Position numbers and translations under genes: made by a program. A stretch of DNA of 64,000 nucleotides from an uncultured Chloroflexia bacterium (lineage in GTDB: Bacteria > Chloroflexota > Chloroflexia > Thermomicrobiales > UBA6265). The notes beneath the pieces were generated by a model, which was not told where the DNA came from, did no database searches, and worked only from the letters and a program-made list of their open reading frames with translations. This document shows, piece by piece, positions 3,137-44,174 of the stretch (position 1 is the first letter of the stretch; each line of letters opens with the position of its first letter). The stretch is taken from the NCBI GenBank assembly GCA_963751075.1, contig CAVVTE010000012.1, positions 8,149 to 72,148 on the forward strand, given 5' to 3'.

Positions 3137-4029
3137 CTAGCCGCAGCAAGAGCCCTCAGGAACGCAACACCGACCGGTGCACTCCCACCCCCCGCCGGAC
3201 CAGTCGCCCTCGGGCAGACCGTCACAATCCGCGTCGCCCTCGCAGCAGCCTCCGGCAAAGTTGCCCGAGTTGTCCTCGAGCTCGCACGATGGGCAGCAGC
3301 CACCGTTATTGTCCGTCTCGGCTTCCGAGCAGCAGAAGTCCCTGAAGATGACATCGAGGTTATGATTGTGCAGCAGCCGCAATTGGTGCACAGGTCCCGG
3401 TCGCAGAGGCCGTTACTGTCCCACGGACAGCAGGTGAAGTCCGGGTCATCGCCGATGCAGTAAGTCTGCTCGAAGGCCTGCTCGTCGGTGTCCGCCGCGC
3501 CCGCGCAACACTGGGAGCCACCCGCGCAGGCCCCGGTGCCACCCACCGCCGAACAGCAGGTGGTGCCAGCGGCCCAGCACGAGAGGGCTTCGCCGCCGAA
3601 CCCGCCGCAGCAGACCGGGGCGCTATTCGGACAGCAGCCTGCGCCACAGGCGGTCTGGCCCGCTTGACATTGCGCCGGCGGCAACGGCGTCACACCAGCC
3701 GGCGGTACCACCGGCGCAGTCGCCGCACAGCCACTGACGCCACTCTGGCAGCGGCCCTTGTAGGCACAGGGGTTGCGCCGCAGCGTCTTCTTGGCCTTCT
3801 TCTTCTCTTTCTTCTGGGTCTTACAGGTGGACGGGTTCGAGCTCGCACAGTTGCAGATGCGGATCTCTTTCTCGTCCTTGTTGTTCTTCTTGGCGCCGGT
3901 CTCGCGGGTCAGGCCCACGCCCGTGGCGCCGGCGAGGGCGCCGGCGACGAGACCGCGTAGAGCCGCGAGGCGGGTGAGGCGGGTCGTGCCAAGGCGTTTG
4001 ACGAGATGATCGAACTGGGATCCTTCCAT
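3137..4029 (-). pseudogene. leader + Lys-rich linker + Cys-rich secreted protein, family member 1; apparent 1-nt frameshift near 3360
   Basis: N-terminus is MEGSQFDHLVKRLGTTRLTRLAALRGLVAGALAGATG...RICNCASSNPSTCKTQKKEKKKAKKTLRRNPCAYKGRCQ. After ...CTNCGCC the protein-like Cys-rich frame switches to ORF 3137..3391 (NLDVIFRDFCCSEAE...CCVPEGSCCG*). The rest of ORF 2368..4029 is Ala/Arg/Pro read-through that overlaps cphA. Confidence 0.7.
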
Positions 4030-4172
4030 GGCTGGTCCATCCTTTGTCGCTGACTGATCACGAGAGACCCTCCATGGGCTCCCGGAGCCGCCACGTCACT
4101 GTGGTCTGGCAATGCAGCAGTCCTCCACCTCCCCTCGTCCCCAGGCGCTCGCGACGCACTACACCACTAGAT

Positions 4173-4203
4173 ACTACACCCGAAGGACGAGATCGGATGC
4201 ATC
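4173..4203 (-). promoter_or_regulatory. bipartite upstream motif copy 1 (plus strand ACTACACC-N14-GGATGCATC)
   Basis: ACTACACC at 4173-4180 and GGATGCATC at 4195-4203, spacer exactly 14 nt, 144 nt upstream of the start at 4029. A second ACTACACC lies at 4158-4165. Confidence 0.6.
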
Positions 4204-4567
4204 GGACGGAGCGATGGACCCGAAGCCTCCGACGTCCCTGTTTGGCGAATGAGCCCAAGCGTTTCGGCGCTGACCATGACGACAGGTCATGCCAAAAAGG
4301 ATAAATTGTGCTACGGAGTCCACCATACGCCATGAGGGCCGGTTCGTCTAGAGCCTGTTATGACCTTTTCTGACGGTTTATTCGCTCAGAGACCGTTTCA
4401 TCAAAGGATGGTTCTCCTTTGTGCCGTATCCGCTCGTTCCCCTTGAAGGGTCTCGGGACTCATGATCGGCAGGGGCCTCGCGGTGCGGCGCATTGTGTGC
4501 CGCGTGCCTTCCAATCATCTGTGTCCTCGCTCAAAGTGCATAACACGCTCTAGCCGGAAAGACCGAG

Positions 4568-4834
4568 GGCATCAGCCCCGTTACGCCGGGTGTGCGGTAA
4601 GGAGAAATCTTTCCTCTGCGTGGCACATGACCCCGGTTGGTCACCGTGCGAGGTGCCCTTTCTTTCGACCGTGGGCGAGCCGGTTGGCCGTCTGGAGGGA
4701 ACTCGGGTCTCTCGCAAGGAGCGAGAAAGGACGGTAGGGGTGTGTGCGAGCACTTCGCCCGAAATCCCTTGGCCCGACCCCTCCCAGCGCCGCCGCATCG
4801 CCTACGGGCCGCCTGCAAGTAGCGCGGGACGTGA
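4568..4834. ncRNA. conserved non-coding block, copy 1 (candidate structured RNA or other cis element; strand unresolved)
   Basis: About 85 percent identical by eye to 10013-10287. Indels between the copies break every reading frame. The adjacent C-terminal coding sequence of the flanking paralogs is less conserved than this block. Confidence 0.3.
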
Positions 4835-4865
4835 AGAGGCCGGCGCTCCTCAGGCGCCGGCCTCT
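4835..4865. terminator. 12-bp GC hairpin (AGAGGCCGGCGC / GCGCCGGCCTCT) 59 nt downstream of the Cys-rich gene 2 stop
   Basis: Inverted repeat with loop TCCTCAG, followed on the plus strand by GTTTAGG. Copy 2 carries an A at 10295, which gives A.C on plus-strand RNA but G.U on minus-strand RNA. Confidence 0.5.
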
Positions 4866-4923
4866 GTTTAGGATGCAATCCGCTCTGGTCTTCGCTGGCC
4901 GGTGGCCTTAGCTCGCCAGAGGG

Positions 4924-5852
4924 CTAGTCCCTGAGGATGCAGACGCCGTTCACGCACACCGCGACATTCGGGTTGTAGAACTCGTCGCAGTCCTTCTGGC
5001 CTTCTGCGCGACAATCGGCAAGACACGACCCGAGCACACAGACGGTCGGGAAATTGCCCCCGAAGTCCGGGCAGTCGTTGTCGTTGTTGCATTGCCCGTT
5101 GTACTGCTCGTCATCGAAGATGCATACATCGTCCGGCGCCTGGGGATTGTCGGTGCCGTCCTCGTTGCAGACCAGCGGCTCGAGGTCGGGGTTATTGGTG
5201 GACAGGAGCTGTGCGCAGTCGACGTTCTCATCGCAGGCGACGAAGCCAAGGCAGCGGCCGTTGAGGTTACAGATGCCGCCACCGCACTGCTCGAAGCTGG
5301 TGCAGTTGACGCACTGGCCCGTGGCCGTGTTGCAGACCAGACCCGCGTTGTCGCCAACGCAGCCAGCGTTGTTGCAGTTGAACCCTGGCGGTGGTGGTTG
5401 CGGCGCCACACACTGACCCGTGGTGATGTTACAGACGTTCGGCGCATCGCACTGCGCGTTGGTGGTGCAGTTCACGCACTGACCGCTGATGCAGACCCGC
5501 GGGGCGCATTGCGAGTTATTCGTGCACCCGATGGGAGCAGGCGTCGCACAGCCACTCACGCCACTCTGGCAGCGACCCTTGTAGGCGCAGGGATTGCGCC
5601 GCAGGGTGTTCTTGGCCTTCTTCTTGTCTTTCTTCTTGGAGCGGCAGGTGTTGGGATCGAGCTGCTACAGATACAGATCCGCCGCTCCTTGTCGTTGTTG
5701 TTGTTGTTCTTCTTGGCGCCGGCCTCGTGGGTGAGGCTCATGCCTGTGGCACCGGCGACTGCACCGGCCACCAATCCCCGCAGAGCCGTCAGACGGCTGA
5801 CGCGGGTGGTGCCGAGTCGCTTGACCAATTGATCGAACTGGGTACCGTCTAT
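4924..5852 (-). pseudogene. Cys-rich secreted protein family member 2; start position is ATA and there is a 1-nt frameshift near 5650
   Basis: Reverse strand reads ATA GAC GGT ACC CAG TTC GAT CAA TTG GTC AAG (IDGTQFDQLVK), aligning with MDGTQFDQLIK of member 3. N-terminal frame is ORF 5556..5828 (...ERRICICSSS). C-terminal frame is ORF 4924..5559 and back-translates to ...DPNTCRSKKKDKKKAKNTLRRNPCAYKGRCQSGVSGC. Confidence 0.7.
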
Positions 5853-6049
5853 GCTGTTGTCTGTCCTTCTTCACTACCTGATCGCGCGGGGCTGCCGCCA
5901 CCGGCTCCCTCGTCCGCTGCTACCCGGTGCACTTGGTCCGTCTTGCCACTACCCCTGCACCCACTCTATCCCGGCGTAAGAGACCGCGGCGGTCAGGAAT
6001 CGGCCCTCTTCATCGACCGCGACCGTCCGGACACTCTTTGTCACTTGAT

Positions 6050-6080
6050 ACTACACCCGACTGACGAAATTGGATGCATC
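6050..6080 (-). promoter_or_regulatory. bipartite upstream motif copy 2
   Basis: ACTACACC at 6050-6057 and GGATGCATC at 6072-6080, spacer 14 nt, 198 nt upstream of codon 1 of member 2. Confidence 0.6.
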
Positions 6081-6671
6081 AGATGGATCGAGGGATTCTA
6101 CGCCCCCGACCTCCCTCTGTGGCGATTGAGACCCGGACGTCTTCGACTCCGCCCCGTCGTGGAGTTCACGTATTGGGGGCATCGTTCGGGGTGGCTACCC
6201 CCGTGATCCGCGCGGAGATCCTATCGATCCCGAGGCCGCAGCACTCAACACCATCACGAGCGGGTCGATCCCTTCGCCCGCTTCCACGTTGTGCTCGAAC
6301 CCCTGAGACCACGCGAGCCGGTCATGATGCGCCCCACCCTGGAGACAGATCCAGCGACGGCCTTCTCCGCAACAGGCCATACCCCTGCCCTCAATACCGC
6401 GGAGTTGAGTCGCTGCCAGATTGGGCCCATTTTCGGTATCGGGGGGGACGTCGATGACAGGGCGCCAGATATCCTCGGACGAGCGCCGTCAGCGGGCGCG
6501 CCTATCTGCTACTGTGACACGCATGATCTTGCTCCCGCCGTCGCCACGGTTGCGCGTCGCCGGCACCGCAACTGTCGTGCCCGAGGCATTCTTGCAGTGC
6601 CAGCCGGCCTCGGGGTCACGCCTCGCCACCACGTGACGCCCACCGGGCGCGGGCGATGAGCATTGCCTAAG

Positions 6672-6821
6672 ATGAAAGGCATGCTCATCATCCGCGGCAT
6701 CAGAGTCTTGCGGGGCCCGAGCATCCTGGCGCCGGTGCTAGGCCTCCTGCCGTTGGGGCAGACCCCACATGCTATACGCTTCCGGCGGATGGTGGTCCTT
6801 GGAGGAGGCCGGCTGTGCTGA
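6672..6821 (+). CDS. 49-codon upstream ORF whose N-terminus mimics the CphA N-terminus; its stop overlaps the cphA paralog 2 start (GTGCTGA)
   Basis: ATG at 6672 gives MKGMLIIRGIRVLRGPSILAPVL..., compared with MLTIRYTQVLRGPNIWVPVP for cphA2. TGA at 6819-6821 overlaps the GTG at 6815-6817. Expression is untested. Confidence 0.35.
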   Translation: MKGMLIIRGIRVLRGPSILAPVLGLLPLGQTPHAIRFRRMVVLGGGRLC

Positions 6822-9380
6822 CGATCCGCTACACCCAGGTATTGCGGGGACCGAACATCTGGGTTCCGGTGCCGGTCATCGCCTTGACGGTAGCCATCGA
6901 GGAGCTGGAGGAGCGGCTGGAGCGGGAGACCCCCGTCTTCTTCGATCGCCTGGTCGTCTCTCCCGTCGCTGGAGACGCACCGGGAGACGGTCGGTCGGCT
7001 GGAGCTGGGCTTTACCCGCCTGCTGCTTGGCCCGATCGCCCTCGCTTTGCAACAGCAAGCCGGGAGCGTGGTCCAGTATTCCGAGACGCACCCGATGCCG
7101 CGCCAGGGGACCTACACCGTCGTCTACGACTACCAGCACCCGTTGGTGGGGAGGGGCGCTGGCAAGCTGGCCGTCCGGCTCCTTAACCATCTGCTCTACG
7201 GAAATGAGCCCGCTTTCAACTTTACCCGTGAGGTGGAAGAGAAGATCATCCGACCGACCGAGCACCACGCGCTTGGCCCATTCCTCGACACGATCACGGC
7301 GGCGGCCCGGCGCCGCGGCATCCCGGTCCTGGAGATCAGCACGAGACCGCCGCTCCTGCAGCTGGGCACCGGCGCCTACCAGCGCCACCTCGAGGGGTCA
7401 GTCCCCGCCGAGACCGGCACCGCTACGAGCATTGCCGGGAACACGAAACCCACCCGCCTGCTGGGCGGGGCGGGGATGCCGGTGTCCTCCGAAATCGTGG
7501 TACACGACGTCGACAGCGCTGTCCAGGCCGCCAGGCGCCTCGGCTATCCAGTCGTCCTGGAGCTACACCATGACCGCCGGAACCACGGCCCTGGCTGCGC
7601 CCTGGATGGCGATGCCCAGGTTCGGGCGGCCTTCTCGGGTATCATGCGATTGGCACTCTCCCGACAGGTCGTCGTCAAGCGCGCCGCCCCCGGCACGCTC
7701 TACCGCATCCTAGTGGTGGGCGACCAGGTGGTGGCGGTGGCCGAACAGGGACCGACTCCTGACCTTGGAGACGGCGCGCCCATCGGGGTCCACGACGTCA
7801 ATGACCGCGACGATCCGGAGTCGCCGGCAGTCGTGACGGCGCCAGATCCCTCCCGGGAGTCCATCGCGGACGATAGCCCGGTCATCCTTCGGGCAGCCAC
7901 CGGCCACCGTAATAGCGGCGGGATCGCGATCGACCGCACCACCGACATTCACCCGGACACCATCACCGTCGCGCGGCATGCGGCATGCCTGCTGGGACTT
8001 GAGGTGGCCGGAATAGACATTGTCACCGCCGACATCTCGCAGTCCATGCTGACGGGGGGTGGCAGTATCGTCGCCGTCGATCCCGCGCCGGACCTGCGCC
8101 TGCACACCCACCCGAGTGAGGGAACGCCGCGCGACGTCGGGATGGTCATCGTCGATCACCTCTTCCCGCCCGGCCAGCCGATGCGGGTGCCGATCGTGGC
8201 CATTACCGGCACAAACGGCAAGACCACCACCACCCGCCTCATCGCCCACATCATGACTACGGCCGGCAGGCGGGTCGGCATGACCACCAGCAACGGTCTG
8301 GACATCGCCGGCCTGCCGCTCGCCATCGGGGATCAGGCGGGGGCCGGCGGCGCCGGGAAAGTGTTGCGCCACCCGGCGGTTGACTATGCCGTGCTGGAGA
8401 TCACCCACGGCCACATCCTGCGCCCAGGGCTCGCCTTCGACCGCTGTGACGTGGCGGTGGTCACCAATGTGGGTAACGATCACGTCGGCACGATCGGCAT
8501 CACGACGATCGAGGACCTGGCCCGGGTCAAGGCGGTGGTGCCGCGTGCCGTCGTCCCCGAAGGGGCGAGCGTCCTCAATGCCGACGACCCCTTGACCGTC
8601 GCGATGGCCGAGGCGGCGGGCGGGGAGATTCTCTACTTCTCGCTGGATGAGGACAACCCGGTCGTTCATGATCATGTTCAGCGGGGAGGCCGTGCGGTGG
8701 TACTGCGGCCAAGCCCGACCGGGGAGATGCTGACACTGCTGGCGGATGGGGAGGCGACGGCGATCCTCCTGGCCGCCGAGATCCCGGCCACGATGGAGGG
8801 GCGCATCCGGGTCAACATCGCCAACGCCCTGGCCGCCACCGCAGCAACCATCGCGCAAGACGTGCCAGTGGAGACGATCCGGGTAGCGCTGCGGACCTTC
8901 GCCAATAGCGTCGCCCAGTCCCCCGGGCGCTTCAACGTCCTCGAGATCGACGGCCGCACCGTGCTCGTCGACTACTGCCACAACCTCCATGGCTTAGAGG
9001 CGATGGCTGATTTCGTCAAGCGTATGGAGCCCCCCCACACCGTGGCCGCCATCTACATGCCAGCCGACCGCCCCGATGAACACATCACCGCCTTCGGCCA
9101 GCTGGCAGCTCAGGTCTTCGATGAGCTCGTCATTCGGGATGCTCACCCGGAGTACCAGCGCGGCCGCACGCCGGGGGAGGTGCCGGCGCTGCTCGAGGCC
9201 GCCGCCATCGCAGGAGGACTCGCACCTGACAAGATCAGTCTGGTCCACGACAAACTGGAGGCGGTCGACTTGGCGATGGCCAAAAGTGGTCGCGGCAGTT
9301 TGATTGTGCTGCTGGGAGCAGACGATCCGGCCGCGATCTGGAATCACCTGACGCAACGGCACCACGAGGCCACCGTCTGA
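6815..9380 (+). pseudogene. cphA: cyanophycin synthetase-like enzyme, paralog 2; apparent frameshift near 6955 and a degenerate ATP-grasp region
   Basis: GGAGGAGG lies 6 nt before GTG 6815. N-terminus MLTIRYTQVLRGPNIW...PVFFDRLVV is in frame 2, then SLPSLETHRETVG... continues in the frame of ORF 7047..9380. Mur-ligase P-loop is VAITGTNGKTTTTRLIAHIM. The last ~330 aa are very similar to paralog 1. Confidence 0.75.
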
Positions 9381-9595
9381 TCATCGCCTGAAGCGGGCGG
9401 TCGCGAACCTGAACGGCGGATTTGCCGGCGGATCGGAGCAGCTCTTGTGTGCGGCGGCAGGTTCCAATGAGGCGGCGGCGCCGGGGCGGTGGCGGTCGTC
9501 CGTCTCCTCCGTACGTCTCGAGCGACCTGGTCGAAGGAGAACTCGCGATACGGGAAATCCCTACGTTTGCAGGAGCCTCCACTGTTCACACAGCC

Positions 9596-9916
9596 ATTTC
9601 ACGGGCCAAGGCACGTTATTCACACGTCTCCGCACCGGCCAACCGATACCTCCGCAGTGTCTGGCCGGGGTTCAATCCCGCCTTTCACGGGTTCGGGGGA
9701 GAAGAAGGCTACATCCATGAGAAGTTCCGGCAAGCGGGCGGATGGTCCCTGTGTCTGCCCTGGTTACGCTGGGTCCATCGCTTCAACCGCCCCTCCGGCG
9801 TTCCCTACCCCCTCTACATCGAAGACAAGCTGCGGAACTACATCTTGCGGAACTACATCTTCGGGTTCACCGAGCTCCGACTCGACCCCACCCCAGCACT
9901 GAAGCACTTCGCGTAG
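9596..9916 (+). pseudogene. C-terminal fragment of a glycosyltransferase-like gene (GFGGEEG motif), no credible N-terminus
   Basis: ORF 9422..9916 ends FNPAFHGFGGEEGYIHEKFRQAGGWSLCLPWLRWVHRF..., resembling the WGWGGEDxE region of GT-A galactosyltransferase-type enzymes. Contains a 15-nt in-frame tandem duplication (LRNYI x2). Confidence 0.3.
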
Positions 9917-10012
9917 CACTTCCCGCCAGCGACGATTGCGGCGGTGGCGCGAGAGGCGCTGGAAAGTGGCATCAGCGCTCCTCCGGAATCAGCGTTGGCC
10001 GGAGTCCCCGCG

Positions 10013-10287
10013 GGCATCAGTCCAGTAACGCCAGGTGTGGGATAAGGAGAAATCTCTTCACGCCACGGTGAATGACCCCAGTTGGTCACCGTCCGAGGTG
10101 CCCGTTCTTTACGACCGTGGACGAGCCGGTTGGCCGTCTGGAGAGATCTCGGGTCTCTCTCAAGGAGTGAGAAAGGAAGGTAGGGATGGGCGCGAGCACT
10201 TCGCCCGCAATCCCGTGGCCCGAACCCCTCCCAGTGTGCCGCCGCACCGCCTGCCCGATGGCTGCCTGCAAGGAGCGCGGGACGTGA
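10013..10287. ncRNA. conserved non-coding block, copy 2
   Basis: Aligns with 4568-4834 from GGCATCAG onward; the flanks upstream of that point are unrelated. Confidence 0.3.
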
Positions 10288-10318
10288 AGAGGCCAGCGCT
10301 CCTCAGGCGCCGGCCTCT
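10288..10318. terminator. hairpin homologous to 4835-4865 (one arm substitution)
   Basis: AGAGGCCAGCGC / GCGCCGGCCTCT with the same loop. Confidence 0.45.
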
Positions 10319-10377
10319 GTCTTAGGATGCAATCCGCTCTGGCCTTCGTTGGCCGGTGGCCTTAGATAGCCAGGGAC

Positions 10378-11319
10378 CTAATCTCGCTTAATGCATACGC
10401 CGTTCACGCACACTGCGACATTCGGGCCCCAGTATTCGTCGCAGTCTTCCTGCCCTTCAGAGCGGCAGTCGGCCAAACATGCCCCGAGGACACAGAACTC
10501 CGGGAATGCGCCGCCTAGCTGGCAGTCATTGTCGGCATTGCACGACGTGAATACATAGTCGCTCGGATCGAAGACGCAGACGTCCTCCGTGAACTCAGAG
10601 CTCTCGTTGCCGTCTTCGTTGCAGACCAACGGCTCGAGGTCGGGGTTTGCAGTGGACAAGATATTTTCGCAGTCGGCGTTTTCGTCGCAGGCGACCTGGC
10701 CAACGCAGCGGCCATTGCTATTACAGAACCCAAACCCAGCCCGGCACTGCTCTAAGCTGGTGCAGTTGACGCACTGGCCGGTGGCCGTGTCGCAGACCAG
10801 CCCGGCGTTATCCCCAACGCAGCCCGCGTTGTTGCAGTTGAACCCGGCGGCGGCGGTGGCGGCGCGACGCACTGGCCGGTGCCGGTGTTGCAGACGTTCG
10901 GCGCGTCGCACTGAGTGCTGTTGGTGCAGTTCTGGCATTGGCCGCTGATGCAGACCCGCGGGGCGCACTGCGAGTTATTCGTGCAGGCCGATAGGAGCAG
11001 GCGTCGCACAGCCACTGACGCCGGTTGGCAGCGACCCTTGTAGGCACAGGGATTGCGCCGCAGGAGTCTTCTTGGCCTTCTTCTTCTCTTTCTTCTTGAT
11101 CTGGCAGGTGGCCGGGATCCGCACTCGCACAGATGCAGATCCGGATCTTCTTTCGTCGTTGTTGTTGTTGTTCTTCTTGGCGCCGGCCTCCTCGCGGGTG
11201 AGGCTCATGCCCGTGGCGCCGGCGACTGCGCCGGCCACCAACCCCCGCAGGGCCGTGAGACGGCTGACGCGGGTGGTGCCGAGGCGCTTGATCAGTTGAT
11301 CGAACTGGGTCCCGTCCAC
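10378..11319 (-). pseudogene. Cys-rich secreted protein family member 3 (recent paralog of member 2) with several frameshifts
   Basis: GTG start gives MDGTQFDQLIKRLGTTRVSRLTALRGLVAGAVAGATG. The expected RKKIRICICASADP, KKKEKKKAKKT, CTNNSQCAPRVCISGQC and C-terminal segments lie in three different frames (ORFs 10975..11319, 10808..11704, 10752..11015, 10378..10968). Confidence 0.7.
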
Positions 11320-11570
11320 TCTGTGTCCACCCTTTCTCGGTGAGCGATGGTGGGGGTCGCCCGCAGTGGCTCCCCATCCTCTCCTTGAATCCTCTCCTAC
11401 GAGACGTGTGCTCCTCAGGGTGCCCGGGCCCTCCTATTCCCGCACCCCATCTCGTCGCCCTACCCGCCCGCGTGACCGCGGACGGTACCGCACACGATGC
11501 CGAGGTCAATGACCATGGTGCATCAAACCACGCACCGAGCCATCGACCGAGACGGTCCATGTACACTAGT

Positions 11571-11601
11571 ACTACACCGAGGAGGCGAAATCGGATGCAT
11601 C
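11571..11601 (-). promoter_or_regulatory. bipartite upstream motif copy 3
   Basis: ACTACACC at 11571-11578 and GGATGCATC at 11593-11601, spacer 14 nt, 252 nt upstream of the start at 11319. Confidence 0.6.
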
Positions 11602-11806
11602 CTTTGCACCGAGCACCCCTCATCCCAACCACTGCTGATCGAGATGTGTCCGGCTTCGACGCGGTGCGACGTGACGACGACACACTATAGCGCACGCCAA
11701 GCATATATTATGCCGTCGAGTACAGAAAACAGCAATACCGCAGACAACGTTCTGTACTCCATGGGGTACGCTAGCGCCTACCGGGACATCTCGGTCGCGG
11801 CGTGGG

Positions 11807-12572
11807 GTGACGATCATGGACCACTTCCCCAGGGTGGGCGAGGAGCTGCTGAGCGCGGACGACGTCGCCCGCTACCTCGAGCTGGAGCCGGTGACCATCT
11901 ACCGCTGGTGCCGGGAGGGGCGCCTGCCCTGCATGAAGCTGGGCAAGGTCTGGCGCATCCGCCGCACCGCCCTCGAGACCTTCCTGCGCCGGGCCGAGCA
12001 GCCCCGGACGCTGACCGCCCATCTGGGCGCCTTCTTCGCCGTGCCCGACCAGGTGCTCGCCGTCGCCGAGGACGCGGCCCTGCTGGCGCGCCTGGACGCC
12101 GCCGTCTTCCAGGTCGCCGAGGCGCGCGACGCGCTGCTGGTCAAGTTCTACGACCCCACGATGGCGCCGCGGGAGGAGCTGCGGGCCGGCTTTCGGCGCG
12201 AGGGACTGGAGATCGAGCGGCTGGAGGGGGCGGGGCGCTTCCGCTGGTGCCCGGCGGGCGACCCGGCCGGCGCGGTCGCCTCCCTGCGCCATCTCCTGAG
12301 CGAGGAAGGCTCGGCGGGACGGCCGGTATGGGTCGTCTTCGACTGGCTGGGAGAGCCAGAGTTGGACGCGGCATTGCGCCAGCAGGCGGAACTGGCCGAT
12401 CTGGTGGCGACGTACCCGCTTGGTGGTCACGACCGGGGTGGTGGCGCCGGCGCCGCAGGAGTGGCCGTCGCCGGAGTCCCAGTGGCAGCTGTTGGGATCG
12501 TTGCGCGGCGTCATCCGCTACGCGTCGACGGGTCTCCTGTTGAGTCGGGTGGTCTCGTCGCTCGAGGCGTAA
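11807..12572 (+). pseudogene. excisionase/MerR-type HTH fused to a MEDS-like (DcmR-type) domain; apparent frameshift near 12415
   Basis: N-terminus is LLSADDVARYLELEPVTIYRWCREGRLPCMKLGKVWRIRRTALETFL. After ...ATYP the listed frame turns Gly/Ala-rich. Frame 0 instead reads LVVTTGVVAPAPQEWPSPESQWQLLGSLRGVIRYASTGLLLSRVVSSLEA* and ends at TAA 12570-12572. Confidence 0.6.
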
Positions 12573-12641
12573 GGCCAGGGGTCTCGCCGCGCGAGGCGTA
12601 AGCCAAGTGGTACCGCCGCTCGAGGCGTAAGCCCAACGGTG
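12555..12641. repeat. 3 x 29-nt imperfect tandem repeat, each unit carrying ...GAGGCGTAAG (the stop-codon region of the HTH gene)
   Basis: Anchor GAGGCGTAA occurs at 12564, 12593 and 12622. Confidence 0.8.
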
Positions 12642-12708
12642 ACCCGAGCACAACCGGGGACGTGGGCCGACACCTGTCGCACCCCCGTCTCGACGATCGT
12701 CGCCGGCA

Positions 12709-12762
12709 AAAACGGATGCATCCTTTGCACCGAGCACTCCCTATCCCCAGCCCTGCTCCCTA
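12709..12762. repeat. direct repeat of 11588-11640 (contains the GGATGCATCC half of the bipartite motif, lacks ACTACACC)
   Basis: CGGATGCATCCTTTGCACCGAGCAC is identical in both copies, and similarity continues ~25 nt further. Confidence 0.6.
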
Positions 12763-12932
12763 TGAACGCCCCTCACTCCCAACCGCCACTCAGCGAGTGG
12801 GAATGAGGGGCCGTGAACACACCGACGGCGCGCCCGAAACGATGCGCGCCGTGGGCAAGATGTCAGATTCCGCGTGTCCTGGCGCGCTCCCTCGCGCCGG
12901 TCGTTGGTCAGTTACGGGCCACTGATCGGTGT

Positions 12933-12962
12933 GGGTCGCGATTCTCGCGGGAATCGCGACCC
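12933..12962. terminator. 11-bp hairpin (GGGTCGCGATT / AATCGCGACCC) followed by GTCCTTCTT, downstream of Cys-rich gene 4
   Basis: Inverted repeat read from the sequence. Confidence 0.4.
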
Positions 12963-13043
12963 GTCCTTCTTACACCCACCGTACGAGAGAACTGAGCCCC
13001 AGCTCCGAGTGAGCATCTGCGCGACCCGCTCCCTGATCGTCCA

Positions 13044-13919
13044 TTACACCGCCGCCCGACAGAACTGCGCTCCGGCTCCTGTGGTAGCGGGATCACACGC
13101 TCCAGAGCAGCACCCTGGGTTCGTCCCACTGGCTGGGCAGCCGCCCGGAGCAGGATTCGCGTTGACTACGCAGCAGCGGCCGTCACCCGGCGCTCCGGTA
13201 GGAGTTTCACAAATCATGCCCAGGCCCGGCGGGTCTGTTGGGCAGCATGTACCCAGGCTGTTTGCAGCGGTTAATACGCATGTCTCGGTTGCGAGCGAAC
13301 AGCAGACATCGGTCGCACCATTTTCAATGCATGTCCGGCCCTGGCAGCATGTGCCCTGCGTGCCAGGGGTCGTGCACGTCGCGCCACCGGACCGGCACGT
13401 CGAACACTCGTTGGCGGTGTCGGCGAGTGGTCCCGTCGTGGACCCACCGGCGTTACAGATCCCGGAGCAGCACTGCCCATCCGCGGTGCAGGCCGCGGTC
13501 AGGGCCAAGCAGTCCTCCTCGTTACAGGCATTCAGATTCGGTTTGCAGGTCCCGGCCTTCTTGCTCCCCGGTGAGCAACAGATTTCCCCGGGCTTGCACG
13601 CCCCGCCGCATTCCGGCGGCGGTGGTGGTTTCGGCGTCTTGACGCACTTGCCCTTATAGTCATACGGGTGCTGTCGCAGGTGCCGCCTGGCCTTTTTCTT
13701 CGAGAATCGCTTGGTAACGCAGCCGATCTGCTGGGGATTGTTGTCACCACAATGGCAGATCGTCCGTTTGCGCCGGTGGGCCTCGGTCTCCTCAGGCGCG
13801 AGGCTCGCGCCCGTCAGCGCCGCCACGGCTCCCGCGGCCAGGCCCTGCAGCACCCGCAGGCGGCTGAGCCGCGTGCGGCTGAGACCCTTGATCAGGTTAT
13901 CAAACGTCGTCCCGTCCAT
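13044..13919 (-). CDS. Cys-rich secreted protein family member 4 (intact)
   Basis: MDGTTFDNLIKGLSRTRLSRLRVLQGLAAGAVAALTGASLA...TICHCGDNN...KKKARRHLRQHPYDYKGKC, then a Pro run and a >30-Cys Gly/Thr-rich domain. A single open frame of 291 aa. Confidence 0.8.
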   Translation of the reverse strand: MDGTTFDNLIKGLSRTRLSRLRVLQGLAAGAVAALTGASLAPEETEAHRRKRTICHCGDNNPQQIGCVTKRFSKKKARRHLRQHPYDYKGKCVKTPKPPPPPECGGACKPGEICCSPGSKKAGTCKPNLNACNEEDCLALTAACTADGQCCSGICNAGGSTTGPLADTANECSTCRSGGATCTTPGTQGTCCQGRTCIENGATDVCCSLATETCVLTAANSLGTCCPTDPPGLGMICETPTGAPGDGRCCVVNANPAPGGCPASGTNPGCCSGACDPATTGAGAQFCRAAV

Positions 13920-14041
13920 TGCTTTCTGGTCCTCTCATCGTCACCGTCGGGCTGTGTCGGCTGGCCCTCATCGGCCATCCATTGATTTCTGGTCTTTTCG
14001 TCACCGTCGGGTGTGTAGGGTGGCCCTCATCGGCCGTCCAT
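13917..14041. repeat. tandem duplication (63 + 59 nt) of the start-codon region of Cys-rich gene 4
   Basis: TCCAT plus upstream sequence recurs at 13917, 13980 and 14039. The upstream copies read ATG GAT/GAC GGC CGA TGA. Confidence 0.8.
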
Positions 14042-14236
14042 CCTGCTCCGCCCCCTGGGGACTTGCGCTCGCCGGGTTGCCCGGATCCTCCTCTGCCGCA
14101 ACCGACGGATAGGTACTCACGCGATCGCGTGGTCTTGGATGGCATGGCACACGGAACGGAGTGGCCGAATGGCCGAAGAGCGCCGTCGTCGGCGCCACAG
14201 GTCGGGTCATCGATCACGACGGCCCGTATAGGTATC

Positions 14237-14267
14237 ACTACACCGGGCCCGCGCGATCGGATGCATC
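14237..14267 (-). promoter_or_regulatory. bipartite upstream motif copy 4
   Basis: ACTACACC at 14237-14244 and GGATGCATC at 14259-14267, spacer 14 nt. Confidence 0.6.
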
Positions 14268-14351
14268 CGGTGCTCTGGGACCGGTCGGAGGCGGGGTTGA
14301 TCCAGGGAATCCAAACGTCCGGGGGCGGTGTATATACAAAGGGAAGTAGCA

Positions 14352-14469
14352 AGTGATTGTAGTAAATCGGGTTCGCGCGGCCAGACTTCCCCACGGAAAC
14401 GGGTGTCACGCTTGGTTATAGTAGATCGGGTTCGCGCGGCCAGACTTCCCCGCGGAAACGGTTGTCACG
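14352..14469. repeat. 2 x 59-nt imperfect tandem duplication (intergenic)
   Basis: ATCGGGTTCGCGCGGCCAGACTTCCCC occurs at 14366 and 14425. Confidence 0.8.
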
Positions 14470-14663
14470 CTGGAGTCTCGTCGGCTCCAACGTCGCCTCT
14501 GATCCGCCGCGAGCCCGTGGTGGATCGATGGACTGTTGGTGATCGCTCGGTCCGGCGGCAGAATGGCTCGAGGTGGAGCAGATTGTCGAGCAGCGCTGCT
14601 CGAAACACTGTCGATGCAATCTTCGCGCTGTTCAAAGCGCCAGCGGCGCGGCCGGGAGAATTC

Positions 14664-15218
14664 ATGGTGCTGTTCCGACACATTCAAGGGCTGGTGCTCT
14701 GGAGCCTGCTGACGGCGTTGCTGGCGTTCACTGTGGTGCCAGTGGCGGCCCAGAATATTGGGTACTTCGGCAAGAATCGGCTGGAGTTCGCGCAAGTCGA
14801 CTCAGATTCGCTCCCGGATGCGACGGGAACCGGCATCGTCGACTACAAGGGCGGCAAGGAGCCGTCGTCGCAGTGGCGGGCATCATTTCGATTTACGGGG
14901 CTTGAAGCGAGAGCAAGCTATACCGTCGTAGTCAAAGGCCGGTTTGGCGACCGGGGCTCCCCGGAAGAAGATGTCCTTTCCCCGTTGTGCTCATTCACGA
15001 CCGACGCCGCTGGGGAGGGGAGCTGCTTCTGGTATTTCCGGGGCCTGGCGCGGCTCAATCTGGTGCAACTGCGTGCAGGGGACGAAAGCGGCTCCCGGGT
15101 GCTGGAGGCGAGCCGCGCTGGCGAGCTCGGCTCGATCGAGACAGAGCCCAACCGCTTCTCGCCGGGCGGGGAGATCCCAGCGCACAAGAAATCCCAGAAC
15201 GGCAGGGATTCCCAATAA
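14664..15218 (+). CDS. secreted hypothetical protein (signal peptide)
   Basis: ATG at 14664 follows GGGAGA. N-terminus is MVLFRHIQGLVLWSLLTALLAFTVVPVAAQN. No family recognised. Confidence 0.6.
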   Translation: MVLFRHIQGLVLWSLLTALLAFTVVPVAAQNIGYFGKNRLEFAQVDSDSLPDATGTGIVDYKGGKEPSSQWRASFRFTGLEARASYTVVVKGRFGDRGSPEEDVLSPLCSFTTDAAGEGSCFWYFRGLARLNLVQLRAGDESGSRVLEASRAGELGSIETEPNRFSPGGEIPAHKKSQNGRDSQ

Positions 15219-15428
15219 GGGGGGTCCGCCCGCACCCCCTGGCTCGGCAGACCCAGAACGGCAGGAATTCCCAATGAGGGTGGGTGCGCCCGCACCCCCG
15301 GTTCGTCAGACCCGGAACGGCAGACACTTCCAATGATGGTGGGTGCGCCCGCACCCCGGTTCGTCAGATTCGGAACAACAGGAATGCCTAATGAGGGGGA
15401 TGCGCCCGTACCGAGGATCGTCAGACGC
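15195..15428. repeat. 4 x 58-59-nt tandem array; each unit repeats the last codons plus a stop (TAA/TGA) of the preceding gene
   Basis: Anchor GAAC(G/A) occurs at 15198, 15257, 15316 and 15374 (GAACGGCAG in units 1-3, GAACAACAG in unit 4). Units end ...CCAATAA, CCAATGA, CCAATGA, CTAATGA. Confidence 0.85.
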
Positions 15429-15466: not shown

Positions 15467-16468
15467 TCAATCGATGCCGGCAGGTGGGATGAGTAGCGCT
15501 GGCAAGGGTGGCGGCAGGGCCGCGATTTCGGGTGAGAACGCTCCGCCAAGCACCATATCAGAGGTGGGGACGGCGCTTCCCGTCTGTGGCTCGGCAGTGA
15601 GGGCGACCCCGACATAGTCGGTGAAGGGACCGGGAGTCTGGAGTAACGCGCGAATCTCGCCGTCGGCTGCGGCGGGCAGCAGGCCGGCGCTCTGTTGCGT
15701 GTTTTGCGTCGTGAACAACCACACCTGATAGCGCTGATCGTGCGGCAGCACCGGCAGCCCGTTGGCGACCAGATACACCTCACGTCCTGTCGGCTCGGCG
15801 AAGACGACGCCGCCCGCGGCCACCGGCAGGTCACTGTCATCCAGCGGGTAGGCCGTGGCCGGATCACTCACCAGGGCGGAGATGTGATCATCCTCGATGA
15901 CCGCGTTGCGCTCATCGTAGCTCCAGGCCCCAAGTCCGCTGACCAGGAAGATCGCCGCCGATGCCGCCACGAGCGCCCAGCGTGGGGGCGGTTGTCCAAA
16001 CGGCAGACGGCGGCGGCTGTCGGCGTCGGCGTCCAGCCGCTGCCCAACCTCGTCGCTCGGATGCGGCCCAGCAGTAACACTGGCGGGAATTACCTCCCGC
16101 TGCCCGACCTCGCCGCTTGGTTGCGACTCAGCACTGATACTCGCAGCAATTACCTCCCGCTGCCCAACCTCGCCGCTCGGATGCGGCCCGGCAGTGACAC
16201 TCGCAGGAGTTAGCGCTTGACTGTTGGCGGCTGGACGTTGGGTGGCCGCCCGCTGGAGGATTGAGTCGCGCAACCAAGGTGCGGGTGGGGGAACAGCAGC
16301 GAGCACGCCGAGGACGTCCATCGCATTGTCCAGCTCGCGGCGACAGGTGGGGCAGGTGTCCAGATGCCGGGTGACTCGGCGCAGGCTGGTCTCGTCCAGT
16401 TTTCCCAGGACGTAGTCAGGCAGCAGGGCAACGATCGTGAGATGATCTCTCGTGGCCGTGTCTAGCAT
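15467..16468 (-). CDS. anti-sigma factor (zinc-finger HxxxCxxC N-domain, one TM segment, RskA-like C-domain)
   Basis: Starts MLDTATRDHLTIVALLPDYVLGKLDE...HLDTCPTCRRELDNAM, with TM segment WALVAASAAIFLVSGLGAW. Lies directly downstream of the ECF sigma gene. Confidence 0.75.
   Translation of the reverse strand: MLDTATRDHLTIVALLPDYVLGKLDETSLRRVTRHLDTCPTCRRELDNAMDVLGVLAAVPPPAPWLRDSILQRAATQRPAANSQALTPASVTAGPHPSGEVGQREVIAASISAESQPSGEVGQREVIPASVTAGPHPSDEVGQRLDADADSRRRLPFGQPPPRWALVAASAAIFLVSGLGAWSYDERNAVIEDDHISALVSDPATAYPLDDSDLPVAAGGVVFAEPTGREVYLVANGLPVLPHDQRYQVWLFTTQNTQQSAGLLPAAADGEIRALLQTPGPFTDYVGVALTAEPQTGSAVPTSDMVLGGAFSPEIAALPPPLPALLIPPAGID
16038..16210. repeat. 2.9 x 60-nt in-frame tandem repeat inside the anti-sigma gene (20-aa units PSGEVGQREVI.AS..A..)
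   Basis: TGCCC(A/G)ACCT occurs at 16041, 16101 and 16161. Confidence 0.85.
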
Positions 16469-16523
16469 CGCTCCTGTCTCAACCCGCTTGGGAGCCTCCG
16501 CGGGGGAAGCATCCCCACCATTG

Positions 16524-17288
16524 TCAAACACTTCGCCAGCCTGTGTCGATGCCGAGCGCCGGCAGCGCCTCACGGAGGGTGCAGAGGGCCCGGCGCATCC
16601 GCGACTTGACGGTGCCGAGCGGCTCGCCCAGGATCGCCGCAATCTCCGACTGACTATATCCCGCCGCGTACAACGCGAGCACGGCACGCTGAGCCGGCGG
16701 CAGCTGGTCGAGCGCGTGGACTAGCCCGGCATCGCGGACCGCGCACCACGCGTCTGCTGCTGGATCGGGCCCCGGTTCAACGCATCCAGCATAGGCGCTG
16801 CCGTCTGGATCGGCGTCCGCGTCCCGGCCCTGCAGCTGCGGCCGCCGCCGCCGGCGGCGCAGCTCGTTCAGCGCCAGGTGGTGGGCGATTCCGTGCAGCC
16901 AGCAGCGGACCGAGCCGCGGGCCTCATCAAAGGTGTGGGCCTGTTGCCAGGCGCGGAGGAAGACCTCCTGCAGAAGCTCCTCGGCCGTCTCTCGATCGCC
17001 GACGATGCGTACGAGCAGCGAGAAGACGACCCGGACATGGCGGTCGTAGAGTGCGCCAAGCGCCTCGGTTTCGCCGGCCACGAGCGCGGCCATCAACGCG
17101 TCATCCGGCACATCGTCGTGCGGCAGTGCGCTAAGCGATTGAGCCGGATCACCGCCAGGAGCCGGCGGCACGATCCGCAATCGCGGCGTTTCTGGGGCTG
17201 TGGGCGCTGCTGGCGCCTCGCCGGTGGGGTCACGCTGGTGGTGCTGACTCACGTTGCCCAGTCCGATGGTTGGATCGTTCGAGGTCAC
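16524..17288 (-). CDS. ECF-type RNA polymerase sigma-70 family factor with an N-terminal extension
   Basis: Region 2 reads LYDRHVRVVFSLLVRIVGDRETAEELLQEVFLRAW. Region 4 reads LPPAQRAVLALYAAGYSQSEIAAILGEPLGTVKSRMRRAL. Start codon is GTG. Confidence 0.85.
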   Translation of the reverse strand: MTSNDPTIGLGNVSQHHQRDPTGEAPAAPTAPETPRLRIVPPAPGGDPAQSLSALPHDDVPDDALMAALVAGETEALGALYDRHVRVVFSLLVRIVGDRETAEELLQEVFLRAWQQAHTFDEARGSVRCWLHGIAHHLALNELRRRRRRPQLQGRDADADPDGSAYAGCVEPGPDPAADAWCAVRDAGLVHALDQLPPAQRAVLALYAAGYSQSEIAAILGEPLGTVKSRMRRALCTLREALPALGIDTGWRSV

Positions 17289-17382: not shown

Positions 17383-17452
17383 ATCAGGATTTCGCGAACC
17401 TCACGCCTTCGGCATCCCGCGGGATACGCGTCAAGACCGATAGATGACATTG

Positions 17453-17568
17453 ACGAGACTATCGAGGTCGGCATCATTCGCCGTCCATGTCTGGCGGGCC
17501 AAGCAGATTGGCGAGAGTATCGAGATCGGCATCATTCGATGTCCAAGTCTGGTGGGCAAAGCAGCTGG
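17453..17568. repeat. 2 x 58-nt tandem duplication; on the minus strand each unit ends a reading frame with ...PPD(L/M)D(I/G)E-TGA
   Basis: TATCGAG(G/A)TCGGCATCATTCG occurs at 17460 and 17518. Confidence 0.8.
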
Positions 17569-17809: not shown

Positions 17810-17925
17810 ACCGGAATCAGCTATGCAGCGTGCGACGAGCCCTGGAAATGCGGCATTCAGCTCATCAACCGGGATCAGCTATGCAGCGTGCAACGAGCCC
17901 TGGAAACGCGGCATTCAGCTCATCA
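17810..17925. repeat. 2 x 58-nt tandem duplication
   Basis: ATCAGCTATGCAGCGTGC occurs at 17816 and 17874. Confidence 0.85.
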
Positions 17926-21720: not shown

Positions 21721-21733
21721 GGGGGAGAGGATC

Positions 21734-43582: not shown

Positions 43583-43612
43583 CCGGCCCCGCTGAAAGCG
43601 GGCGAACAATAA

Positions 43613-43696
<84 letters not shown>

Positions 43697-44171: not shown

Positions 44172-44174
44172 CAT

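What the first reader, a model, noticed from the sequence alone, without database searches (positions are those of the whole stretch)
4173..14267. Bipartite upstream motif with invariant 14-nt spacing in front of all four Cys-rich genes
On the plus strand, ACTACACC occurs at 4173, 6050, 11571 and 14237. In each case it is followed after exactly 14 non-conserved nt by GGATGCATC, at 4195, 6072, 11593 and 14259.
On the gene strand this reads GATGCATCC-N14-GGTGTAGT(A/G). GATGCATC is an 8-bp palindrome, extended to the 10-bp GGATGCATCC in copies 3 and 4. The rest of the 144-318-nt leaders is not alignable even between the recent paralogs 2 and 3, so the motif is selectively retained.
TAGTAT/TAGTAC/TAGTGA could be a -10 element, but the implied -35 (GCATCC at 18 nt) is poor for sigma-70. 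A dimeric regulator site plus a -10, or an alternative-sigma promoter, is more plausible (inference). Candidate trans factors are encoded nearby: the HTH/MEDS-like gene at 11807-12572 and the ECF sigma at 16524-17288.
Basis: seen in the sequence. Interest (0 to 1): 0.65.

Follow-up and report, generated by a model that had tools for sequence, protein, structure and literature searches.

The report
ECF-sigma promoter of secreted-protein genes
The repeated upstream motif is real and is most likely the promoter read by a stress-type (ECF) sigma factor encoded a few kilobases away, which switches on a set of secreted cysteine-rich proteins in a soil Thermomicrobiales-like bacterium; it is a new example of a known kind of switch.

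Summary
GATGCATCC-N14-GGTGTAGT occurs four times without a mismatch (0.02 expected), each time upstream of a Cys-rich secreted-protein gene and pointing towards it.

In 22 distinct sites from the window and from metagenome relatives, the conserved core is (G/T)(C/G/A)ATCC-N14-GGTGTAnTA. The left half of the "palindrome" is not conserved. The sigma-70 position -7 is not conserved either.

The core reads GCATCC-N16-TGTAnT. This matches the published ECF18-type promoter: consensus GCATCC / CGTAT, and the tested promoter Pecf18_up1700, TGCATCC-N16-GGTAAT.

The window encodes an ECF sigma with an RskA-type anti-sigma at 15467-17288. In 6 of 6 orthologous loci, the gene next to that operon carries the motif.

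Best explanation: an ECF-sigma-dependent promoter defining a small regulon of exported proteins, gated by the RskA-like anti-sigma.

Nothing supports the HTH gene as the regulator. It sits inside a 53-nt duplication.

The sigma gene itself lacks the motif, and no transcript data exist. Three of the four Cys-rich genes are disrupted in this assembly.

Verdict: a new member of a known kind, of moderate interest.

The parts
4173..4203 (-). Promoter P1: GATGCATCC-N14-GGTGTAGT. Read as -35 GCATCC, a 16-nt spacer and -10 TGTAGT. Predicted start of transcription near 4166 (inference).
   Evidence: Exact match. PWM score 36.8 bits against at most 13 in shuffles.
6050..6080 (-). Promoter P2, same motif. 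Predicted start of transcription near 6043 (inference).
   Evidence: 39.6 bits. Orthologous promoters and leaders in L031, L034, L037 and L038.
11571..11601 (-). Promoter P3, same motif (GGATGCATCC form). Predicted start of transcription near 11564 (inference).
   Evidence: 39.8 bits. Contigs of related soil strains differ around the 17 core bases but not within them.
14237..14267 (-). Promoter P4, same motif, in front of the only intact Cys-rich gene. Predicted start of transcription near 14230 (inference).
   Evidence: 35.1 bits. The ortholog-like locus L001 has GGATGCATCC-N14-GGTGTAAT.
14305..14335 (+). It lies back to back with P4 and faces the secreted-protein gene at 14664-15218.
   Evidence: 24.7 bits. 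The same motif lies in front of the orthologous gene in L039, L040, L041, L043 and, with N15, in L042.
3137..4029 (-). Cys-rich exported-protein gene, copy 1 (N-terminus MEGSQFDHLVKRLGTTRLTRL...). The reading frame shifts near 3380.
   Evidence: Three-frame translation.
4924..5861 (-). Cys-rich gene, copy 2. ATA stands where relatives have ATG, and there is one frameshift after the ICICSSS segment. Probably a pseudogene.
10378..11321 (-). Cys-rich gene, copy 3 (GTG start), with at least 5 frame changes in this assembly.
   Evidence: Related metagenome contigs carry 1-nt indels at these places.
13044..13919 (-). Cys-rich gene, copy 4, intact, 291 aa. It has a Tat-like N-terminal signal, a basic linker and Cys-rich modules.
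   Evidence: No Pfam or NCBIfam family.
14664..15218 (+). Secreted 184-aa protein of unknown family. It is the conserved convergent neighbour of the sigma/anti-sigma operon and the likely core target of the sigma.
   Evidence: Synteny in L039-L043. No family hit.
16524..17288 (-). ECF sigma factor (regions 2 and 4 only), the candidate reader of the motif. The true start may be at 17252.
   Evidence: Pfam Sigma70_r2 and r4_2. NCBIfam ECF models. Orthologs of 245-247 aa at 70-98% identity.
15467..16468 (-). Anti-sigma factor with a zf-HC2 anti-sigma domain and an RskA_C extracytoplasmic domain. It contains a 60-nt internal tandem repeat.
   Evidence: Pfam. NCBIfam NF052375 above its cut-off. Start chosen at MLDTATRD. 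Repeat from TRF.
12705..12757 (-). Relic of the upstream half of P3. It keeps GGATGCATCC and about 35 nt upstream at 85% identity, but has no GGTGTA. It is the second copy of a 53-nt direct repeat that flanks the HTH_17 gene.

Best explanation
The motif is the promoter for an ECF-type (group 4) alternative sigma factor. The -35 element is (T)GCATCC, tolerating GAATCC, TGATCC and GGATCC. A 16-nt spacer follows. The -10 element is TGTAnT, preceded by an invariant GG.

The most likely reader is the ECF sigma encoded at 16524-17288. That sigma is held inactive at the membrane by the RskA-type anti-sigma encoded just downstream (15467-16468). An unknown envelope or extracytoplasmic signal releases it.

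Once free, it drives a small regulon of exported proteins. In the window this comprises the conserved neighbour gene at 14664-15218 and the four Cys-rich genes.

What is shown: the motif, its conservation, its position and orientation, its match to the ECF18-type consensus, and its genomic linkage to the sigma/anti-sigma operon.

What is inferred: that transcription starts about 7 nt after TGTAnT, that this particular sigma reads the motif, and that RskA gates it.

The sigma operon itself seems to be driven by sigma-70-like promoters, not by the motif. Control would therefore be post-translational rather than autoregulatory.
For: (1) There are four exact copies against 0.02 expected and a fifth on the other strand. 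PWM scores are 24.7-39.8 bits; the next best hit in 64 kb scores 14.3, and the shuffle maximum is 13.

(2) The motif is conserved upstream of family members in more than 13 distinct metagenome loci. It always points at the gene, 66-280 nt before the start codon. A 22-site table gives gA-tGcATCC-RAT-N10-C-GGTGTA-g-t-a.

(3) The motif block is 81-97% identical where the unrelated upstream flank is 37-67%. Strain-level variants avoid the 17 core bases.

(4) Two family members that lack the motif carry sigma-70-like promoters in the same position: TTGACG-N17-TAATGG and TTTACA-N17-TATGCT. No sigma-70-like site lies near the four genes in the window.

(5) The motif matches published ECF promoters. 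The ECF18 consensus is -35 xGCATCC and -10 xxCGTATx (PMC13492112, Table 4). The synthetic-biology promoter Pecf18_up1700 is TGCATCC-AGATTGTCTCGGCGGC-GGTAAT. It has the same -35, the same 16-nt spacer, the shared GTA and even the (A)GATT after the -35 (PMC3817407, supplement).

(6) RskA-like anti-sigmas characterise the ECF214/18/19 clade (PMC7826278). The window pair has zf-HC2 plus RskA_C. In a panel of Rhodius ECF groups 17-34, the window sigma is closest to ECF34_1384. That is the sigma reported to activate Pecf18_up1700.

(7) In 6 of 6 loci holding orthologs of this sigma/anti-sigma operon (70-98% identity), the convergent neighbour gene has the motif upstream. In 3 of those loci a second, divergent motif drives a gene with a Tat-like signal and Cys-rich modules.
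Against: There are no transcript data, so no 5' end is mapped.

The sigma gene has no copy of the motif upstream, either in the window or in four aligned loci. The usual ECF hallmark of autoregulation is therefore missing.

Sigma classification is ambiguous. ECF34 scores 81.9 bits, but ECF33, 17, 18, 27 and 19 score 70-78, and groups 1-16 and 35-43 were not tested. The best PDB hit is SigL rather than SigK. The NCBIfam SigK score of 110.7 is far below the cut-off of 226. The SigK cysteine pair is not in register.

Motif-bearing genes also occur where no ECF gene lies within 10 kb (L001), and upstream of an unrelated cupredoxin gene in another Chloroflexota MAG (L010). Linkage to this one sigma therefore rests on adjacency only.

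The -10 (GGTGTA) differs from the ECF18 consensus (CGTAT) at its first base. It also resembles the SigL-type CGTGTC, though with a different spacing.
Confidence: 0.7

Rival explanations
1. It is an alternative-sigma promoter, but the reader is a different sigma encoded elsewhere in the genome. This could be an ECF11-like factor, whose promoters are TGATCC-N16-CGTA, or another Thermomicrobiales ECF. The adjacency to the RskA-linked sigma would then be coincidental or reflect cross-talk.
For: The sigma operon has no autoregulatory copy of the motif. The -35 variants TGATCC and GGATCC equal the ECF11 type (Pecf11_3726 is GTGATCC-N16-CGTAAC; Table 4 of PMC13492112). That paper also groups ECF11, 18, 26, 37 and 207 as possibly cross-talking. 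The sigma's group assignment is ambiguous. L001 has motif genes without a nearby ECF/RskA pair.
Against: In 6 of 6 orthologous sigma/RskA loci the motif lies on the adjacent gene. Five sites lie within 13 kb of the only ECF gene in the 64-kb window. The anti-sigma is of RskA type, not ChrR type.
Confidence: 0.2
2. The palindrome GATGCATC is the operator of a dimeric regulator, such as the HTH protein at 11807-12601, placed next to a weak sigma-70 -10 (TAGTAT).
For: An 8-10-bp perfect palindrome is present in all four window copies. An HTH gene lies divergent from copy 3.
Against: The left half-site is lost in 12 of 22 related sites while ATCC is invariant. The position equivalent to -7 of a sigma-70 -10 is T, C, A or G, whereas GGTG upstream of TA is invariant. 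The HTH gene is not a conserved neighbour of the family. It is bracketed by a 53-nt duplication, as an insertion would be. Its HTH is of the excisionase/MerR-like type.
Confidence: 0.05
3. It is not a promoter but a short dispersed repeat. This could be a recombination or attachment site linked to the shuffling of these variable genes, or part of a transcribed leader element.
For: The genes are a fast-diverging family with variable C-termini, frameshifts and local duplications. The leaders are long and are conserved among orthologs.
Against: Only about 20 nt are conserved, in a bipartite pattern with fixed spacing. The motif is always upstream of a gene and facing it. It is replaced by sigma-70-like promoters in two relatives. 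It also occurs in front of unrelated genes. There is no Rfam match. The leaders fold no better than shuffles, with z-scores of 0.18 and -0.35, and show almost no covariation.
Confidence: 0.03

Closest known systems
ECF18-type promoters (RpoT/RpoP-like ECF sigmas with RskA-like anti-sigmas), e.g. Pecf18_up1700 of Rhodius et al. 2013
   Same: The -35 is GCATCC (TGCATCC in 10 of 22 sites). The spacer to the GTA core is 16 nt. The -10 is xGTAxT. A/GATT follows the -35. The cognate sigma is paired with an RskA-type anti-sigma.
   Different: The first -10 base is T, not C, and is preceded by an invariant GG. The organisms are Chloroflexota (Thermomicrobiales-like), not Proteobacteria. No motif lies upstream of the sigma operon. 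The sigma is not clearly ECF18 by sequence.
Mycobacterium tuberculosis SigK-RskA and its regulon (mpt70/mpt83)
   Same: An ECF sigma plus an RskA anti-sigma controls a very small regulon that consists largely of secreted proteins, some encoded next to the sigma locus (PMC7509140 and PMC4105308).
   Different: Identity to SigK is only 33%, the SigK cysteine pair is not aligned, and the NCBIfam SigK cut-off is not reached. SigK autoregulates through an upstream promoter, and none was found here. My recollection of the SigK site (CCATCC-N16-CCGAAT) could not be checked, because the paper is not held.
ECF11-type promoters (RpoE-ChrR family), e.g. Pecf11_3726
   Same: GTGATCC-N16-CGTAAC has the same ATCC -35 core, spacing and GTA -10 core. 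The TGATCC variants of the present motif are identical to its -35.
   Different: ECF11 sigmas pair with ChrR-type anti-sigmas, whereas the pair here is of RskA type. GCATCC is the majority form.
SigL (ECF17) promoters, TGAACC-N16-CGTGTC
   Same: The -10 block xGTGTx resembles GGTGTA (Pecf17_up1691). SigL is the best PDB sequence hit of the window sigma.
   Different: The -35 is AACC, not ATCC. The GTGT block sits 2 nt further from the -35. The anti-sigma type differs (RslA).

Membership tests
ECF (group 4) sigma-dependent promoter | Bipartite -35/-10 with a fixed spacer of about 16-17 nt, and a -10 built around a short GT(C/A) core rather than TATAAT | tested here: met
   ATCC-N14-GGTGTA is invariant in spacing in 21 of 22 sites. 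L037 and the L042 neighbour have N15.
ECF (group 4) sigma-dependent promoter | Intergenic, upstream of the controlled gene and oriented towards it; conserved in orthologous promoters | tested here: met
   Holds for all sites in the window and in L001, L010, L017-L043. The motif block is 81-97% identical against 37-67% for the flank.
ECF (group 4) sigma-dependent promoter | Transcription starts a few nt downstream of the -10 and depends on the sigma | not testable with these tools
   No RNA runs hold the locus. Only fragmentary soil-metagenome contigs were found.
ECF (group 4) sigma-dependent promoter | Autoregulation: the same motif upstream of the sigma/anti-sigma operon (common, not universal) | tested here: not met
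   There is no PWM hit of 9 bits or more upstream of the sigma gene in the window or in L039-L043, and no shared block in the alignment. Sigma-70-like TGGACA-N18-GATACT sites are found instead.
ECF18/ECF19 (SigK/RpoT-like) sigma with RskA anti-sigma | Sigma with regions 2 and 4 only, followed by an anti-sigma with a zf-HC2/ASD domain and an RskA C-terminal domain | tested here: met
   Pfam Sigma70_r2, r4_2, zf-HC2 and RskA_C. NCBIfam anti-sigma NF052375 scores 111 bits against a cut-off of 100. The same architecture is seen in 5 orthologous loci.
ECF18/ECF19 (SigK/RpoT-like) sigma with RskA anti-sigma | Sequence closest to reference members of these groups | tested here: inconclusive
   The phmmer panel of Rhodius groups 17-34 gives ECF34 81.9 bits (ECF34 is merged into ECF19 in the 2021 scheme), ECF33 77.8, ECF17 75.3, ECF18 72.1 and ECF19 70.1. 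Groups 1-16 and 35-43 were not tested. The NCBIfam SigK subfamily scores 110.7 against a cut-off of 226.
ECF18/ECF19 (SigK/RpoT-like) sigma with RskA anti-sigma | Conserved cysteine pair (C133/C183 of SigK) | tested here: not met
   The alignment shows two conserved cysteines in the Thermomicrobiales proteins (AWC......RALC), but 5 to about 12 residues out of register with those of SigK and ECF18.
ECF18/ECF19 (SigK/RpoT-like) sigma with RskA anti-sigma | Cognate promoter GCATCC ... CGTAT | tested here: met
   The -35 is identical, the spacer is the same 16 nt, and the -10 shares GTAxT.
Housekeeping sigma-70 promoter | TTGACA-like -35, 17-nt spacer, TAnnnT -10 with conserved T at -7 | tested here: not met
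   The consensus scan finds none at the sites. The base at the -7 equivalent varies (T, C, A, G) and GGTG is invariant.
Palindromic operator of a dimeric HTH regulator | Two-fold symmetry kept in orthologous sites; regulator gene linked | tested here: not met
   The left half is lost in 12 of 22 sites. The HTH_17 gene is not a conserved neighbour and lies inside a duplication.

The most novel reading that the evidence does not exclude
The sigma/RskA pair and its GCATCC-N16-TGTA promoters may define a regulon specific to Thermomicrobiales. Its main output would be a rapidly diversifying, often decaying family of Tat-signal, knottin-like Cys-rich secreted proteins, possibly antimicrobial or metal-binding effectors. 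Their long, ortholog-conserved 5' leaders would add a second, still unknown layer of control. The sigma would not be autoregulated.
Probability: 0.25. Interest if true: 0.5.

Novelty: new member of a known kind. Interest (0 to 1): 0.35.

Why it matters
Promoters and regulons are almost unstudied in Chloroflexota/Thermomicrobiales. This analysis gives a ready-made, testable sigma - anti-sigma - promoter triplet.

It also assigns a common control to an uncharacterised family of exported Cys-rich proteins and to a conserved secreted neighbour gene.

It shows that the ECF18/ECF11-like promoter grammar (ATCC-N16-GTA) extends to a distant phylum. That is useful for regulon prediction and as an orthogonal expression part.

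It does not reveal a new regulatory principle.

Tried and rejected
- Transcript evidence. No RNA run holds the locus. The one candidate run (X5) and the DNA runs gave only short, low-depth soil-metagenome contigs, so no 5' ends could be mapped.
- Whole-genome motif census. The source genome is not in that collection, and only the Chloroflexota hit (L010) looks genuine.
- Leader RNA. There is no Rfam hit at gathering score or at E<=1. RNAalifold on 5 orthologous leaders gave 1 covarying pair in 45. Folding z-scores were 0.18 and -0.35. No case can be made for a structured RNA.
- Autoregulatory site upstream of the sigma gene: none found by pattern, PWM or alignment.
- HTH_17 gene as regulator. 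It is similar to the L001 HTH gene only within the HTH. It is absent from other family loci and is bracketed by a 53-nt repeat.
- SigK binding-site literature. The primary paper (PMC2258859) is not held and text searches gave nothing usable. My recalled consensus is therefore marked as unverified.
- Family assignment of the Cys-rich proteins and the neighbour protein: no Pfam or NCBIfam family, only a sub-threshold fn3 hint.
- PDB sequence search of the anti-sigma: no hit.

Full report
**Observation**

The pattern ACTACACC-N14-GGATGCATC occurs on the + strand at 4173, 6050, 11571 and 14237 with no mismatch. The expectation from dinucleotide shuffles is 0.02, and relaxing to 3 mismatches adds nothing.

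Read on the minus strand, each copy lies upstream of a gene whose product starts M(D/E)G(T/S)QFDxL(I/V)KRLGTTR..SRL..LRGLVAGA. A lysine-rich linker and cysteine-rich modules follow.

Only copy 4 (13044-13919) is intact. Copy 1 changes frame near 3380. Copy 2 has ATA where relatives have ATG, plus one frameshift. Copy 3 changes frame at least five times. Related soil-metagenome contigs carry 1-nt indels at several of these places. I cannot tell real decay from assembly error, except for the ATA codon, which is a substitution.

**Is the motif selectively kept?**

Between paralogs 2 and 3 the first 240 nt of coding sequence are 84% identical, the 31-nt motif block 82%, the leader 55% and the unrelated upstream flank 53%.

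I then collected relatives of the protein. I fetched their loci by exact protein look-up and by one metagenome scan.

A GGTGTA box lies exactly 14 nt after a (A/G/C)TCC in L001, L017/18, L020-22, L023, L024/25, L026, L027, L031, L032/35, L033, L034 and L038. In L037 the distance is 15 nt. The box is always 66-280 nt before the start codon and points at it.

Two members without the motif have textbook sigma-70-like promoters at that place: L028 with TTGACG-N17-TAATGG and L029 with TTTACA-N17-TATGCT. This is what one expects if the motif is itself a promoter.

**What is conserved?**

A table of 22 distinct sites gives gA-tGcATCC-(A/G)AT-N10-C-GGTGTA-g-t-a.
- TCC, the T before it and GTGTA are invariant or nearly so.
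- The bases that make the left half of the palindrome are not conserved: GGAATCC, CTGATCC, CGGATCC, GTCGTCC.
- After GGTGTA the next positions vary. The base that would be -7 of a sigma-70 -10 hexamer TAGTAT is T, C, A or G.

Two readings are therefore not supported: a dimeric operator, and a housekeeping -10. The consensus scan finds no sigma-70-like promoter near any of the four genes.

**More sites**

A relaxed search and a PWM scan show a fifth strong site in the window. It is GGGAATCC-N14-GGTGTATAT on the + strand at 14305-14335, back to back with P4. It faces a 184-aa signal-peptide protein at 14664-15218. Scores are 24.7-39.8 bits for the five sites. The next hit scores 14.3, and the best of ten shuffles 13.

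In L001 a second site drives another Cys-rich (Stig1-like) protein with the same N-terminal signal. In a Chloroflexota MAG (L010) the exact motif lies about 75 nt before a cupredoxin lipoprotein gene. The motif therefore marks a regulon of exported proteins, not one gene family.

**Which factor?**

The window encodes one ECF sigma (16524-17288). It is followed by an anti-sigma with a zf-HC2 domain and an RskA C-terminal domain. No other sigma gene was found among the window's genes.

Orthologs of the sigma at 70-98% identity are common in soil metagenomes. One is named by NCBI as from a Thermomicrobiales MAG.

I fetched five orthologous loci (L039-L043). In each, the operon is followed by a convergent 159-190-aa secreted protein homologous to 14664-15218. 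Every one of these genes has the motif upstream:
- GGAATCC, GGCATCC, GGAATCC and GGGCATCC with N14 in L039, L040, L041 and L043;
- GCGCATCC with N15 in L042.

In L042 and L043, as in the window, a second, divergent motif drives a gene with a Tat-like signal and Cys-rich modules. L041 also has such a gene beside the neighbour, but its upstream region runs off the contig end.

This six-out-of-six adjacency is the main evidence that links the motif to this sigma. It is correlative.

**Comparison with known promoters**

Table 4 of a 2026 Cupriavidus TSS study lists the predicted ECF18 consensus as -35 xGCATCC and -10 xxCGTATx. It lists ECF11 as xGTGATC / xxCGTATA (PMC13492112).

The supplement of Rhodius et al. 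2013 gives the tested promoter Pecf18_up1700 as TGCATCC-AGATTGTCTCGGCGGC-GGTAAT, in a construct defined as -60 to +20. It states that this promoter is activated by ECF34_1384 (PMC3817407).

Written the same way, the present motif is TGCATCC-N16-TGTA(G/A/T/C)T. The -35 heptamer and the spacer length are identical, the GTAxT is shared, and a similar (A)GATT follows the -35.

The TGATCC variants equal the ECF11 promoter Pecf11_3726, GTGATCC-N16-CGTAAC.

Casas-Pastor et al. 2021 place RskA-like anti-sigmas in the ECF214/18/19 clade and merge ECF34 into ECF19 (PMC7826278).

By analogy with the -60 to +20 numbering of Pecf18_up1700, transcription should start about 7 nt after TGTAnT. This is an inference.

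**Is the sigma a member of ECF18/19?**

Architecture and anti-sigma type fit. Sequence similarity does not decide.
- In a phmmer panel of Rhodius groups 17-34 the best hit is ECF34_1384 (81.9 bits). ECF33, 17, 18, 27 and 19 follow within 12 bits.
- In the PDB, SigL scores 74 bits and SigK 68.
- The NCBIfam SigK model scores 110.7 against a cut-off of 226.
- The two cysteines typical of SigK and ECF18 are not in register, although the Thermomicrobiales proteins have two conserved cysteines of their own.

I therefore say the system works like an ECF18/19-type module. I leave membership open.

**Weak points**

No copy of the motif precedes the sigma operon in any of the loci. Instead the window has two sigma-70-like sites (TGGACA-N18-GATACT, and its tandem duplicate TGGACG-N18-GATAGT) upstream of the sigma gene. 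This suggests constitutive synthesis with post-translational gating. It also removes the usual internal proof of an ECF-promoter pairing.

There are no RNA data. Some motif-bearing genes have no ECF gene within 10 kb.

A different ECF with a similar promoter grammar is therefore the main rival, at about 0.2.

**The HTH gene**

The protein at 11807-12601 has an excisionase/MerR-type HTH_17 domain. It is not found next to family members elsewhere, and its similarity to an HTH gene in L001 is limited to the HTH.

It lies between two copies of a 53-nt direct repeat (11584-11636 and 12705-12757, 85% identical). The second copy keeps the -35 half of P3 but has no GGTGTA. The gene thus looks inserted into, or duplicated with, a promoter region. 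This argues against a dedicated regulatory role.

**Leaders**

Leaders are long (predicted 137-323 nt in the window). Within orthologous sets they are as conserved as the coding sequence: the copy 2 group is 66-67% identical to the window and 76-83% among L031, L034, L037 and L038.

I found no Rfam family, almost no covariation and no excess folding energy. Their conservation remains unexplained.

**Verdict**

It is best explained as an ECF-sigma promoter of the ECF18/ECF11-like grammar. It marks a small regulon of exported proteins and is probably read by the neighbouring RskA-controlled sigma.

This makes it a new member of a known kind of system in a poorly studied phylum. It is useful for annotation and easy to test, but not surprising to a specialist.

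Noticed in passing
window 13915-14041, 14360-14471, 15193-15426, 16037-16212, 17449-17564, 17810-17925, 17986-18101, 20351-20583, 21603-21721, 21795-21915, 25842-25963, 39697-39814, 62705-62828: Thirteen tandem duplications of unrelated sequences all share a period of 57-60 nt, mostly 2 copies at 81-96% identity. They lie in leaders, intergenic spacers and inside the anti-sigma gene. A contig from an independent run spans the 13915-14041 array, so that one is not an artefact of this assembly. The cause of the constant period is unknown.
   Followed up: partly
window 3137-4029, 4924-5861, 10378-11321; L043 8530-9099: Three of the four Cys-rich genes are disrupted: frameshifts in or after the lysine-rich linker, and ATG to ATA in copy 2. 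All three keep perfect promoters. A family gene in L043 is frameshifted in the same linker region. Relatives show 1-nt indels at these places. This could be real decay, slippage-prone A-runs or assembly error.
   Followed up: partly
window 11584-11636 and 12705-12757: A 53-nt direct repeat (85% identical) brackets a 1.1-kb segment holding the excisionase-type HTH_17 gene. The distal copy is a promoter relic with the -35 half only.
   Followed up: yes
window 4158-4165; L001 9756-9763: A second GGTGTAGT box lies 12-15 nt downstream of the promoter's own box in copy 1 and in L001. It has no matching -35.
   Followed up: no
window 17-2554 and 7047-9380: There are two cyanophycin-synthetase paralogs. 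The second is below the NCBIfam cut-off and divergent in its N-terminal third. Each is followed by a convergent Cys-rich gene, which suggests a segmental duplication of a cphA-plus-Cys-rich unit.
   Followed up: no
L031 2814-3004, L034 91-280, L037 1003-1183, L038 121-303, window 5862-6047: The 5' leaders of the copy-2 subfamily are 66-83% identical across samples, as conserved as the coding sequence. They include a GC hairpin with a GATG-type loop about 40 nt before the start codon. There is no Rfam hit and no significant covariation.
   Followed up: partly
window 17449-17564: Two sigma-70-like promoters (TGGACA-N18-GATACT and TGGACG-N18-GATAGT) sit in a 58-nt tandem duplication upstream of the ECF sigma gene.
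   Followed up: no
window 18281-19108: A secreted 275-aa protein ends in LPDTG plus a hydrophobic stretch and a basic tail, that is, a sortase-type sorting signal. It has no Pfam family.
   Followed up: no
L028 about 260-300; L029 about 1450-1490: Two members of the Cys-rich family have exchanged the ECF-type motif for sigma-70-like promoters at the same position.
   Followed up: no
window 43510-44248 and 46823-48109: Three tRNA genes are followed by a DDE_Tnp_1_4 transposase gene, in the lowest-GC stretch of the window at 58%.
   Followed up: no
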